Shown: positions 60,661-61,660 of the stretch, piece after piece | Numbering within the stretch: the first letter of the stretch is position 1 | Layout: every line of letters begins with the position of its first letter | NCBI RefSeq assembly: GCF_009914755.1 | Contig: NC_060928.1 | Direction: 5' to 3' (one strand) | Source: the human T2T-CHM13v2.0 reference genome, Homo sapiens | DNA length: 64,000 nt | The notes under the pieces: generated by a model | What the model saw: the letters and a program-made list of their open reading frames with translations, nothing else | Told to the model about the DNA's origin: nothing | The model's database searches: none | Translations under genes and position numbers: made by a program

Positions 60661-61660
60661 AGAGCGGCGCCGGCCTCGGCGGCTGAGGAAAGCAGGAGGA
60701 GGTGGTGGCGGCGGGAAGATGTAAGTTGGGGCGGAATCCGACCGCATCCGTGTTTCGGGGGCTGCCCGGCAGGACGCATCGTGAAGCCGGTCCACTCCTC
60801 AGCCCCGCAGTGCGGCGGTGGTCTGGCAGCGCGGTGCGGGCTCCGAGAAGAAAGAGTGTGGCCCGGGGCGGGCGCATTAGGAGGTGTCGAGGCCGTGGCC
60901 CGGAAGTGGTCGGGGCCGCTGCGGGCGGAAGGGCGCCTGTGCTTCGTCCGCTCGGCGGTGGCCCAGCCAGGCCCGCGGGACTCAGACCAGCGGGGAGCGC
61001 GACCTCCGCCCTTGGGGCTCTCCCGCCGGGCCGGAGACCCAAGCCCCCAACGCTAGGCCCTGCCCTGGAAGCGCTCGCGGCCCGGCGCCTGGACGGGGAA
61101 GTTGTGAGTGAACGCGGACGGGTAGCGGCAAGGTCGGCGTGTCGGGCCGGTGTCGGCGGGCGCGGAGTTTCTTTGTGGGATGCGGTGGAAGGTCGGCTGA
61201 TCCCCCCTTCGGAGTCATTAATTCAAACGTGTACTCCGCGAACGTTTCCCGGACTCCCGTGTGCAATTATCGACGCTAGGCCTTGGGGATACGGCCCACT
61301 ATGGACCGAGCACGGTGGCCGAGCTCAGTTTGATGGGTTACCCCAGAGGGGCGGATACGGGAAGATTAAGGTTGTTGGAGGAGAAACGTGGAGTAGGCTT
61401 TTTGTCTTGATTCCGCATGAACTGTGCCTGAAATGTACTTTTAAATGGGGAAGGTGCTCTGAAGATTTGTGCCGAAACGCCCTCTCCTCGAGATTTAACT
61501 AATTGTTCTCTCCTCTCTCTGGCTGTTGGACGCGCACCTTTCCAGAGGATGGGGGAGGTAACCGAGGTCCTGAGCCGGTACCTGAACTTGGGTGAACAGA
61601 GAACCTCAACTTTTGCTTTCTAGCACTCGACCGCACCCAGCAAGGCGTCCGCTTACTCAG
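60661..61660. promoter_or_regulatory. CpG island with GC boxes and an ETS motif
   Basis: Very high GC/CpG density; GGGGCGG at ~60728 and ~60865; CCGGAAGTG at 60900-60908. Confidence 0.85.
60886..60980 (+). ncRNA. MIR572: MIR572 hairpin (mature 60946-60965)
   Basis: Matches recalled hsa-mir-572 precursor GTCGAGGCCGTGGCCCGGAAG...GCCCGCGGGA and mature GTCCGCTCGGCGGTGGCCCA. Confidence 0.85.

What the first reader, a model, noticed from the sequence alone, without database searches (positions are those of the whole stretch)
60886..60980. MIR572 lies in retro-duplicated RNPS1 intron-1/CpG-island sequence
The hairpin starts ~165 bp downstream of the exon-1 donor, inside the copied segment. A near-identical paralog should therefore exist at the 5' end of the highly expressed RNPS1 gene. 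Either this miRNA locus was born through intron-retaining retrotransposition, or 'miR-572' signal is really promoter-proximal or intronic RNA from the parent gene. The mature sequence is extremely GC-rich, which is typical of doubtful miRNA annotations.
Basis: partly seen in the sequence, partly recalled or inferred. Interest (0 to 1): 0.7.

Follow-up and report, generated by a model that had tools for sequence, protein, structure and literature searches.

The report
MIR572 inside an intron-retaining RNPS1 retrocopy
The human microRNA gene MIR572 is a copied piece of the first intron of the housekeeping gene RNPS1, and because the mature 20-base sequence is identical at both places, measurements of "miR-572" cannot say which locus they come from.

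Summary
Observation confirmed. Window 60661 to about 65800 is an L1-type processed retrocopy of RNPS1 (chr16). It has a 16-nt target-site duplication, a poly(A) tail at the parent's cleavage site and seven introns removed at GT-AG borders. Its first 2005 nt stayed colinear with the parental gene, so exon 1 plus normally intronic CpG-island sequence was copied.

The MIR572 hairpin (60886-60980) starts 165 nt after the unused GTAAGT donor. The predicted paralog exists in RNPS1. It matches at 94 of 95 bases, differing only at 60925 (G here, A in the parent). The mature 20-mer matches at 20 of 20, and the genome holds only these two copies.

The retrocopy origin is already in print (Mercuri et al. 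2023, PMC10486083). That paper calls miR-572 a de novo product with no parental stem-loop. I find this overstated but not baseless. The isolated parental 95-mer folds into the same hairpin. With native flanks, however, the predicted hairpin probability is about 0.95 on chr4 and 0.05 or less on chr16.

The hairpin is no more stable than shuffled sequence (z = -0.81). Published small-RNA counts are near noise (20 samples; the most frequent miRNAs reach 399). I could reach no Drosha or Dicer data, so the source of the reads stays open.

The parts
60644..60659 (.). 5' copy of the retrocopy's target-site duplication (eight A, then TTAAAACA)
   Evidence: The same 16 nt follow the poly(A) run at window-equivalent about 65805-65820, beyond the window and read from L003.
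60660..60660 (+). One G that belongs neither to the duplication nor to the parent (parent has C here)
   Evidence: sequences. Reading it as a cap-derived untemplated G of a full-length capped template is inference from recalled knowledge of retrocopies.
60661..60720 (+). Equivalent of RNPS1 exon 1. Homology starts at C16:2290560, just after a TGACGTCA motif in the parent.
   Evidence: The first 45 nt are identical to the parent.
60721..60726 (+). GTAAGT 5' splice-site consensus, left unspliced in the copied transcript
   Evidence: Identical in the parent: no difference is listed there.
60661..61260 (+). Copied part of the RNPS1 CpG island
   Evidence: GC 0.707, 75 CpG, o/e 1.03, against 78 CpG and o/e 1.00 in the parent. 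The 600 nt upstream on chr4 have 4 CpG, o/e 0.18.
60875..60879 (+). Cluster of three substitutions against the parent (60875, 60877, 60879), 7-11 nt before the hairpin
   Evidence: In the parent this stretch is predicted to pair with the mature region and compete with the hairpin.
60886..60980 (+). MIR572 precursor hairpin
   Evidence: Rfam RF01020 at 102.6 bits. MFE -54.8 kcal/mol, z -0.81. 94 of 95 identical to C16:2290326-2290232.
60925..60925 (+). The only base in the hairpin that tells the loci apart (hairpin position 40, 5' arm): G on chr4, A on chr16
   Evidence: The Rfam consensus has 'a' at this position.
60946..60965 (+). Annotated mature miR-572 (3' arm, hairpin positions 61-80)
   Evidence: 20 of 20 identical at C16:2290247-2290266. 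These are the only 2 genomic places at up to 1 mismatch.
60661..61699 (+). First part of the 2005-nt unspliced 5' block of the retrocopy
   Evidence: Colinear with C16:2290560 downwards at 97.2%.
61700..62946 (+). L1 3' fragment with an inverted 5' part, inserted into the retrocopy and absent from the parent. It is flanked by a 15-nt duplication at 61685-61699 and 62947-62961.
   Evidence: The parent is uninterrupted at this site. The + strand ORF 62142-62738 matches L1 ORF2p residues 1082-1275. The - strand ORF 61657-61986 matches residues 984-1079.
62962..63916 (+). Second part of the unspliced 5' block. It ends where the parent has a GT donor (C16:2288556).
63917..64000 (+). Start of the first properly spliced exon of the retrocopy (continues to about 64104). 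The ATG of the intact 305-codon frame lies at window-equivalent 64034.
   Evidence: The junction 40-mer is found with 1 mismatch, and the parent has AG/GT borders.
61250..61320 (.). Published candidate imprint control region ICR_253 (hg38 chr4:11369191-11369261), placed here by a fixed offset from the hg38 MIR572 coordinates
   Evidence: Jima et al. 2022 Table S1, criteria. The offset uses MIR572 hg38 11368827-11368921. Colinearity of hg38 and this assembly is assumed, not tested.

Best explanation
**Origin (shown).** A capped, polyadenylated RNPS1 transcript was reverse-transcribed and inserted into chr4 by the L1 machinery. It had removed its seven downstream introns but still carried about 1.9 kb of sequence after the exon-1 donor. 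The copy took along some 550 nt of the parental CpG island that lies downstream of the transcription start. That stretch includes a GC-rich inverted repeat, which is now annotated as MIR572. Both arms and the whole mature sequence were inherited. They were not created on chr4.

**Age (inferred).** The insertion dates to about the human-gorilla split. Paralog divergence is 1.86% overall and 1.35% at non-CpG sites.

**Change after copying (in silico only).** In the parent's native context, an upstream G-rich stretch is predicted to pair with the mature region, and the hairpin is a minor conformer. On chr4 several changes make the hairpin the dominant predicted fold. These are a G at hairpin position 40, a cluster of three substitutions 7-11 nt upstream, and two downstream changes.

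**Mechanism I commit to (inferred, about 50%).** The chr4 copy is a young, marginal proto-miRNA. It is transcribed weakly and sporadically, possibly from the copied CpG island itself, and it gives very few Dicer-type products. Sequencing reads of the 3' arm cannot be assigned to either locus. Hybridisation-based signals (arrays, qPCR) are not locus-specific and may largely reflect RNPS1 precursor RNA or other GC-rich RNA.
For: **Retrocopy hallmarks.**
- There are 8 colinear blocks, with 7 of 7 junctions at GT-AG borders in the parent. The junction 40-mers are present in the copy with 0-1 mismatch.
- AATAAA and an A-run sit at the parent's cleavage site, and a 16-nt target-site duplication flanks the copy.
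- The first block of 2005 nt is colinear with the gene.

**Inheritance.** The hairpin matches at 94 of 95 bases and the mature sequence at 20 of 20. The genome holds only 2 copies. The parent scores higher than chr4 on the Rfam mir-572 model, 106.3 against 102.6 bits. The model consensus carries the parental A.

**Age.** Differences are 72 of 3874 overall and 47 of 3493 at non-CpG sites. Mercuri et al. Table S4 lists the retrocopy in human, chimpanzee and gorilla only.

**Fold.** The pair probability of the miRNA duplex with 20-200 nt of native flanks is 0.84-0.96 on chr4 and 0.00-0.05 on chr16. The result holds with the base-pair span capped at 70-100 nt. Putting the parental A into the chr4 background lowers it to 0.23-0.60.

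**Expression.** miR-572 was found in 20 samples with mean 1.29, and a 5' arm species in 6 samples. The most frequent miRNAs in that table reach 399 samples. Sporadic detection fits a weakly transcribed locus better than a ubiquitously expressed host; that RNPS1 is ubiquitous is general knowledge, not tested here.

**CpG island.** It is still intact on chr4, with o/e 1.03.
Against: - I saw no read-level data, so transcription of chr4, processing by Drosha or Dicer, and AGO loading are all untested.
- The hairpin is no more stable than shuffles (z -0.81).
- The mature RNA starts with G and has 16 of 20 G+C. I found no CNNC at the expected distance and no basal UG at the expected place (the expected positions are recalled).
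- The chr4 copy has none of the parent's upstream promoter.
- The first 45 nt of the copy equal RNPS1 exon 1. Short CAGE tags from the RNPS1 start site would therefore map here too, which weakens published 'TSS upstream' evidence.
- Thermodynamic ensembles of 80% GC RNA are fragile and ignore co-transcriptional folding and proteins.
- The isolated parental 95-mer has the same minimum-energy hairpin at -51.4 kcal/mol.
- RNPS1 precursor RNA is probably far more abundant than any chr4 transcript.
Confidence: 0.5

Rival explanations
1. Parent-derived signal. What is called miR-572 is mostly promoter-proximal or intron-1 RNA of the highly expressed RNPS1 gene: degradation fragments, or poorly processed hairpin. 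It is credited to chr4 only because that is where the annotation sits. The chr4 copy would be silent.
For: The mature 20-mer is identical at RNPS1, and 52 of 74 22-mers of the hairpin are shared. The chr4 copy lacks the upstream promoter, with flank CpG o/e 0.18. A candidate region of about 50% methylation lies at the edge of the copied island. The Agilent probe is a 13-mer that matches both loci. miR-572 travels with other GC-rich array 'miRNAs' such as miR-638. Sequencing counts are near noise. Mercuri et al.'s own Table S4 places chimpanzee 'mir-572' on chr16, which is the parental locus.
Against: In native context the parental hairpin has a predicted probability of 0.05 or less. A ubiquitous, abundant host would be expected to give broad detection, not 20 samples where the commonest miRNAs reach 399. 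Random fragments should not favour this exact 20-mer.
Confidence: 0.3
2. Both loci feed one small-RNA pool by a non-canonical route. One such route is Drosha-independent processing of promoter-proximal Pol II transcripts, the 'TSS-miRNA' type. The retrocopy would simply have duplicated such an element together with its CpG-island promoter piece.
For: The hairpin lies 225-319 nt from the retrocopy's 5' end, which matches the parent's start region, inside a CpG island at both loci. The island is preserved on chr4. The hairpin lacks the recalled canonical Microprocessor motifs at their expected places.
Against: No data on Drosha independence, capping or AGO binding were reachable. The hairpin starts more than 200 nt from the start site, which is further than I recall for that class. 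The parental fold is disfavoured in silico.
Confidence: 0.15
3. The chr4 segment is a DNA-level segmental duplication of the RNPS1 5' region, not a retrocopy.
For: 2005 nt are colinear with genomic DNA, including non-exonic sequence.
Against: Seven introns are removed exactly. There is a poly(A) run at the mRNA cleavage site and a target-site duplication. Homology starts at the transcript 5' end, and nothing of the promoter was copied.
Confidence: 0.01

Closest known systems
Retro-miRs (Mercuri et al., Mob DNA 2023, PMC10486083), class 'N-retro-miR'
   Same: The locus and claim are the same: miR-572 lies in RNPS1P1, a retrocopy of RNPS1 shared by human, chimpanzee and gorilla. My in-context folding agrees that retrocopy-specific substitutions matter.
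   Different: The paper says the miRNA arose de novo and that the parental region shows no stem-loop. I find both arms and the mature sequence inherited unchanged, at 94 of 95 and 20 of 20. The isolated parental 95-mer has the same minimum-energy hairpin, and the parent scores higher on Rfam. The paper lists miR-572 neither as intron-derived nor among the retro-miRs with ambiguous read assignment.
miRNAs in processed pseudogenes (Devor 2006: miR-220, miR-492; cited in PMC10486083, itself not read)
   Same: A primate-specific miRNA annotation inside an L1-made copy of an mRNA.
   Different: Here the hairpin comes from sequence that is normally spliced out and is part of the parent's CpG island, not from exonic or exon-junction sequence.
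Semi-processed (intron-retaining) retrocopies (recalled class)
   Same: Most introns are removed, one stretch is retained, and poly(A) and a target-site duplication are present.
   Different: The retained stretch brought a CpG-island fragment and an annotated miRNA with it.
Promoter-proximal AGO-bound small RNAs or 'TSS-miRNAs' (recalled: Zamudio et al. 2014)
   Same: A GC-rich hairpin within a few hundred nt of a CpG-island start site of a protein-coding gene.
   Different: No evidence here on Drosha independence or AGO loading, and the distance from the start exceeds 200 nt.
GC-rich, weakly supported miRBase entries seen mainly on arrays (e.g. miR-638, which co-varies with miR-572 in PMC5553681)
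   Same: 80% G+C, a short array probe, frequent array and qPCR reports, and very low sequencing counts.
   Different: miR-572 has a long, well-defined predicted hairpin on chr4 (P about 0.95) and a traceable origin.
Imprinted retrogene CpG islands (recalled examples: MCTS2, NAP1L5, INPP5F_v2)
   Same: A retrocopy-associated CpG island listed as a candidate region of about 50% methylation (ICR_253).
   Different: No parent-of-origin call has been made. Read mis-mapping between 97%-identical paralogs could mimic half-methylation. The island here was copied from the parent rather than arising at the insertion site.

Membership tests
L1-mediated processed retrocopy | Introns of the parent removed at exact exon borders | tested here: met
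   7 of 7 junctions have GT-AG in the parent, and the junction 40-mers are found in the copy with 0-1 mismatch. One stretch of 2005 nt stayed unspliced.
L1-mediated processed retrocopy | Poly(A) tail at the mRNA cleavage site, downstream of AATAAA | tested here: met
   The A-run starts exactly where parental homology ends, after AATAAA.
L1-mediated processed retrocopy | Target-site duplication flanking the insert | tested here: met
   16 nt (eight A, then TTAAAACA) on both sides.
Rfam RF01020 mir-572 | Score at or above the gathering threshold of 80 bits | tested here: met
   chr4 scores 102.6 bits. The RNPS1 copy also passes, at 106.3 bits.
Canonical animal miRNA (criteria as recalled from MirGeneDB and Ambros-type rules) | Imperfect hairpin with at least 16 paired positions between the arms | tested here: met
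   17 pairs between positions 28-44 and 62-79, with mean pair probability 0.95.
Canonical animal miRNA (criteria as recalled from MirGeneDB and Ambros-type rules) | Fold clearly more stable than sequence of the same composition | tested here: not met
   z = -0.81, and 45 of 200 shuffles fold at least as well.
Canonical animal miRNA (criteria as recalled from MirGeneDB and Ambros-type rules) | Reads from both arms with 2-nt 3' overhangs and homogeneous 5' ends | not testable with these tools
   Only summary counts were seen: 3' arm in 20 samples, a 5' arm species in 6. No sequences or read ends were available.
Canonical animal miRNA (criteria as recalled from MirGeneDB and Ambros-type rules) | Dependence on DROSHA/DGCR8 and DICER1 | not testable with these tools
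   No such result was found. The papers most likely to hold it were not held or had unreadable supplements.
Canonical animal miRNA (criteria as recalled from MirGeneDB and Ambros-type rules) | Microprocessor sequence motifs (basal UG, apical UGU, downstream CNNC) at their usual distances | tested here: inconclusive
   UGU lies in the apical loop at 60938. CNNC is at +8 and +23, not near +17. The nearest basal UG, at 60896, is about 4 nt off. The expected distances are recalled, and many true miRNAs lack some of these motifs.
N-retro-miR (de novo in the retrocopy; Mercuri et al. 2023) | No stem-loop in the equivalent parental region | tested here: inconclusive
   The parental 95-mer alone has the same hairpin as its minimum-energy structure, at -51.4 kcal/mol, with duplex P 0.48-0.62. 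With 20 nt or more of native flank the probability is 0.00-0.05.
R-retro-miR (miRNA already present in the parent; Mercuri et al. 2023) | An annotated exonic miRNA in the parental gene that was copied | tested here: not met
   The sequence is present in the parent at 94 of 95. It lies after the exon-1 donor, and the paper lists RNPS1 as having no exonic miRNA (file 4).

The most novel reading that the evidence does not exclude
A latent hairpin was carried out of the gene by an intron-retaining retrocopy. In RNPS1's own transcript it is held in a competing structure. The retrocopy also brought a piece of the parental CpG island that now serves as its own orphan promoter. Four to six substitutions on chr4 then released the hairpin. 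These are a cluster of three just upstream, G at position 40, and two downstream. This would be a base-by-base traceable birth of a hominine miRNA gene from promoter-proximal sequence. The copied island may also have become a half-methylated, possibly imprinted, region (ICR_253).
Probability: 0.2. Interest if true: 0.6.

Novelty: already known. Interest (0 to 1): 0.35.

Why it matters
miR-572 is used as a biomarker and a functional miRNA in many array and qPCR studies; 99 papers in the library hold 'miR-572' together with 'Drosha' alone. Three points bear on those studies.

1. Its mature sequence is also encoded in the first intron of RNPS1, so no assay of the 3' arm is locus-specific.
2. The one paper that traced its origin describes it as created de novo, with no parental stem-loop. 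That needs correcting, because the arms and the mature sequence were inherited.
3. A single base (60925, G against A) in the 5' arm gives a direct test of which locus is active.

In the two library searches that pair miR-572 or RNPS1P1 with the parent, I found no paper noting the identical parental sequence. One search returned 3 papers and one search returned 6. This claim is limited to that library.

If the in-silico 'unlocking' is real, the locus is a compact example of how a few neutral-looking substitutions turn copied promoter-proximal sequence into a hairpin gene.

Tried and rejected
**Segmental duplication instead of retrocopy.** Rejected on the evidence.

**More paralogs.** The 1047-nt 5' block has 2 genomic matches and the mature 20-mer has 2. 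The spliced part finds only one further piece, a 5'-truncated 664-nt 3'UTR fragment at C4:173104944-173105606 with 95% identity. That fragment has no hairpin region.

**CpG decay as a read-out of germline methylation of the chr4 island.**
- Parental CpG read as TG or CA on chr4: 3 of 77 in the island, 5 of 39 in the rest of the unspliced block, and 4 of 66 in the spliced exons.
- The reverse direction: 1 of 75, 1 of 34 and 1 of 62.
- The trend is less decay inside the island and more decay on chr4 than in the parent. The counts are too small, and there is no outgroup to set the direction.

**Microprocessor motifs.** Inconclusive.

**Literature on biogenesis.**
- Searches gave nothing on Drosha or Dicer dependence, MirGeneDB status, or primate mir-572 entries. 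One search (miR-572 with 'GC-rich') returned 0 papers.
They were the FANTOM5 miRNA atlas, the DROSHA/XPO5/DICER knockout study, the 2015 vertebrate miRNA annotation review and the colorectal microRNAome paper.
- The supplements of PMC6468295, PMC10351893 and PMC9074900 could not be read. Any of these may hold read-level or knockout data that bear on the open question.
- Figures S3 and S4 of PMC10486083 are pictures, and I could read only their legends.

**Recalled, not verified.** I believe miR-572 is absent from MirGeneDB and that miRBase lists macaque and orangutan mir-572 entries. Neither point was checked.
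Full report
**1. What is at the coordinates**

Rfam's mir-572 model (RF01020) matches window 60891-60980 on the + strand at 102.6 bits. The gathering score is 80 and E is 1.4e-17.

The 95-mer 60886-60980 folds into one long stem-loop of -54.8 kcal/mol. The opposite strand folds worse, at -40.9 kcal/mol with z = 0.18.

The fold is not exceptional for its composition. Its z-score is -0.81, and 45 of 200 dinucleotide-preserving shuffles fold at least as well. It is nevertheless among the three most stable of 109 sliding 95-nt windows across the surrounding CpG-rich stretch. 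The mean there is -38.6 kcal/mol, sd 7.5.

The annotated mature RNA (60946-60965) occupies positions 61-80 of the 3' arm. It has 16 of 20 G+C and begins with G.

**2. The surrounding segment is an RNPS1 retrocopy that kept its first intron**

The own-genome search found one other copy of window 60650-61696. It lies at C16:2289516-2290560 on the minus strand, 97% identical. I fetched 9 kb of chr4 and 19 kb of chr16 and aligned them.

The chr4 sequence from 60661 to window-equivalent 65800 matches chr16 in eight colinear blocks.
- The first block covers 2005 nt of uninterrupted parental DNA (C16:2290560-2288556).
- On chr4 only, an insert at 61700-62946 splits this block.
- The other seven blocks are exons. 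All 7 junctions have AG/GT borders in the parent. The 40-nt junction strings occur in the chr4 copy with 0 or 1 mismatch.

The copy ends where the parental mRNA is cleaved, after AATAAA, and continues as an A-run. A 16-nt duplication (eight A, then TTAAAACA) flanks it, at 60644-60659 and at about 65805-65820.

One G at 60660 belongs neither to the duplication nor to the parent. I read it as the untemplated G that reverse transcription of a cap can leave. That reading is inference.

Nothing of the parental promoter was copied. The 600 nt upstream on chr4 hold 4 CpG, with o/e 0.18. Homology starts right after a TGACGTCA motif in the parent.

This is therefore an L1-type processed retrocopy of a full-length transcript, not a DNA-level duplication.

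A GTAAGT consensus donor lies at 60721-60726, 60 nt into the copy.

I had no annotation of chr16. Mercuri et al. name a predicted isoform (XM_005255049.4) as the parental mRNA (file 7).

The annotated pseudogene start (60880) is 219 nt short of the true 5' end. The hg38 coordinate 11368602 in the same table corresponds to 60661.

**3. The predicted paralog exists and is nearly identical**

C16:2290326-2290232 matches the 95-mer at 94 of 95 positions. The only difference is window 60925, hairpin position 40 in the 5' arm. It is G on chr4 and A on chr16.

The mature 20-mer is identical. A genome-wide pattern search with up to one mismatch finds exactly these two places and none for the reversed control.

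Of the 74 possible 22-mers in the hairpin, 52 are shared exactly with the parent.

The parental copy scores higher than chr4 on the Rfam model, 106.3 against 102.6 bits. The model's consensus has 'a' at the distinguishing position. The chr4 G is therefore probably the derived state. This is inference, because I could not see the Rfam seed.

The only other RNPS1-derived piece in the genome is a 5'-truncated 3'UTR fragment without this region.

**4. Age**

The two copies differ at 72 of 3874 aligned positions (1.86%), broken down as follows:

| Part | Differences | Percent |
|---|---|---|
| Unspliced 5' block | 38 of 1993 | 1.91% |
| Spliced 5'UTR | 0 of 116 | 0% |
| Coding sequence | 13 of 918 | 1.42% |
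| 3'UTR | 21 of 847 | 2.48% |

At non-CpG sites the difference is 47 of 3493 (1.35%). This is about the level I recall for human-gorilla divergence. It fits Table S4 of Mercuri et al., which lists the retrocopy in human, chimpanzee and gorilla but not orangutan, rhesus or marmoset.

**5. What is already in print, and where it needs correcting**

Mercuri et al. (Mob DNA 2023, PMC10486083) state that miR-572 'originated in RNPS1 retrocopy, RNPS1P1'. I read passages, section 5 and supplementary files 2, 6 and 8. The retrocopy origin is therefore known.

They class miR-572 as a 'novel' retro-miR. [quoted passage not shown]

Their discussion of ambiguous read assignment names other retro-miRs, not miR-572. 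Their five uses of 'intron' have nothing to do with retention of a parental intron in RNPS1P1.

Their own Table S4 places the chimpanzee 'mir-572' on chr16, while the chimpanzee retrocopy is on chr4. That is what one would expect if the parental locus is an equal or better match.

The two library searches pairing the names returned only that paper, its preprint and unrelated co-occurrences (3 papers, 6 papers).

**6. A result in favour of the published view**

*Isolated 95-mer.* The parental copy has the same minimum-energy hairpin, at -51.4 kcal/mol. Its ensemble is more diffuse, though. The mean pair probability of the miRNA duplex is 0.48-0.62, against 0.95 on chr4.

*With native flanks.* The gap becomes large. 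With 20 to 200 nt on each side, chr4 keeps 0.84-0.96 while chr16 falls to 0.00-0.05. It persists when base pairs are limited to spans of 70 or 100 nt. It disappears only at 60 nt, which is too short for the hairpin itself.

*The competing structure.* In the parent's minimum-energy structure, a G-rich stretch just upstream of the hairpin pairs with the mature region. On chr4 that stretch carries three clustered substitutions, at 60875, 60877 and 60879.

*Single-base swaps.*
- The parental A at position 40, placed in the chr4 background, lowers the probability to 0.23-0.60.
- No single chr4 base rescues the parental background fully. The best values are 0.47-0.62, from position 40 or from 61019.

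Several substitutions together thus make the hairpin the dominant predicted fold on chr4.

This is thermodynamic prediction on 80% GC RNA. It ignores co-transcriptional folding and bound proteins, so I treat it as moderate evidence.

**7. Which locus makes the RNA?**

I could not reach read-level data.

*What I could see.*
- In Table S6 of Mercuri et al. (FANTOM5-derived), hsa-miR-572 is detected in 20 samples with mean 1.29.
- A 5' arm species is detected in 6 samples with mean 2.60.
- Abundant miRNAs in the same table reach 399 samples.
- The signal is close to the noise floor and sporadic. It is not what a good hairpin in a ubiquitously expressed host would give.

*Hybridisation-based studies.* These report miR-572 as consistently expressed. 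One of them prints the Agilent probe, a 13-mer that matches both loci and any precursor fragment. There miR-572 co-varies with other GC-rich entries such as miR-638.

*Published start-site evidence.* Published 'pri-miRNA' and 'TSS upstream' evidence is weakened by the first 45 nt of the retrocopy being identical to RNPS1 exon 1. Short CAGE tags from the RNPS1 start would map 225 nt upstream of MIR572 as well.

*The copied CpG island.* It is still intact on chr4, with 75 CpG in 600 nt and o/e 1.03, against 78 and 1.00 in the parent. CpG decay counts hint that it decayed less than the rest of the retrocopy, 3 of 77 against 5 of 39. The numbers are too small to rely on.

**8. Verdict**

- The hairpin lies in the part of the template that stayed unspliced.
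- Both arms and the mature sequence were inherited from RNPS1.
- The mature RNA cannot be assigned to a locus.
- One base (60925) can decide the source.
- A defined handful of substitutions shift the predicted fold towards the hairpin on chr4.

I put about 50% on a marginal young chr4 proto-miRNA. I put about 30% on mostly parent-derived RNA, and about 15% on both loci feeding a non-canonical pool.

**9. Seen in passing**
- The insert at 61700-62946 is an L1 3' fragment with an inverted 5' part. The + strand frame 62142-62738 matches ORF2p residues 1082-1275. The - strand frame 61657-61986 matches residues 984-1079. It has a 15-nt duplication and is absent from the parent, so it came after the retrocopy.
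- The retrocopy keeps an intact 305-codon frame, with 7 amino-acid differences from the parent (6 synonymous and 7 non-synonymous changes). Its ATG is just past the window end.
- Jima et al. 2022 list a candidate imprint control region, ICR_253, at hg38 chr4:11369191-11369261 inside RNPS1P1. It has no parent-of-origin call. The criteria were at least 5 CpG and 50% +/- 15% methylation in brain, liver and kidney. It was re-used in PMC13286735.

Noticed in passing
window 61685-62961: L1 3' fragment (61700-62946) with an inverted 5' part, a poly(A) end and a 15-nt target-site duplication, inserted into the retrocopy's unspliced block. It is absent from the RNPS1 parent, so it is younger than the retrocopy. 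The + frame matches ORF2p residues 1082-1275 and the - frame matches residues 984-1079.
   Followed up: yes
L003:4034-4951 (window-equivalent 64034-64951, just beyond the window end): RNPS1P1 keeps an intact 305-codon reading frame, the same length as the frame of the spliced parental blocks. It has 7 amino-acid differences (13 of 918 nt; 6 synonymous, 7 non-synonymous). An open frame after about 1.4% divergence could be chance. Mercuri et al. report dN/dS 0.65, not significant.
   Followed up: partly
window about 61250-61320 (hg38 chr4:11369191-11369261): Published candidate imprint control region ICR_253 (Jima et al. 2022), with about 50% methylation in three tissues, lies at the edge of the copied CpG island. 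It has no parent-of-origin call. It could be real allele-specific methylation of a retrocopied island, or an artefact of bisulfite reads shared with the 97%-identical RNPS1 island.
   Followed up: partly
window 60661-60705: The first 45 nt of the retrocopy are identical to RNPS1 exon 1. Short CAGE tags from the RNPS1 start site would map here as well and mimic a transcription start 225 nt upstream of MIR572.
   Followed up: partly
window 60763/60764: A 9-nt stretch present in the parent (C16:2290457-2290449) is missing on chr4. It lies in a locally repeated GC-rich motif. Without an outgroup it is unclear whether chr4 lost it or the parent gained it.
   Followed up: no
window 60880: The annotated start of RNPS1P1 (60880) is 219 nt downstream of where parental homology really begins (60661).
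   Followed up: yes
window 58459-58610: An Alu-like element gives sub-threshold Rfam hits to Metazoa_SRP (52.8 bits), mir-1268 and mir-3135. This is a reminder that several miRNA families in Rfam are Alu-derived.
   Followed up: no
G000:C4:173104944-173105606 (minus strand): A second, older (95% identical) and 5'-truncated RNPS1 retrocopy fragment covering only part of the 3'UTR.
   Followed up: no
PMC9665137 supplementary Table S2: A second candidate region, 'Chr4:39406966-39407091', is also labelled with nearest transcript RNPS1P1 at distance 0. That does not fit this locus and looks like a labelling slip in that table.
   Followed up: no
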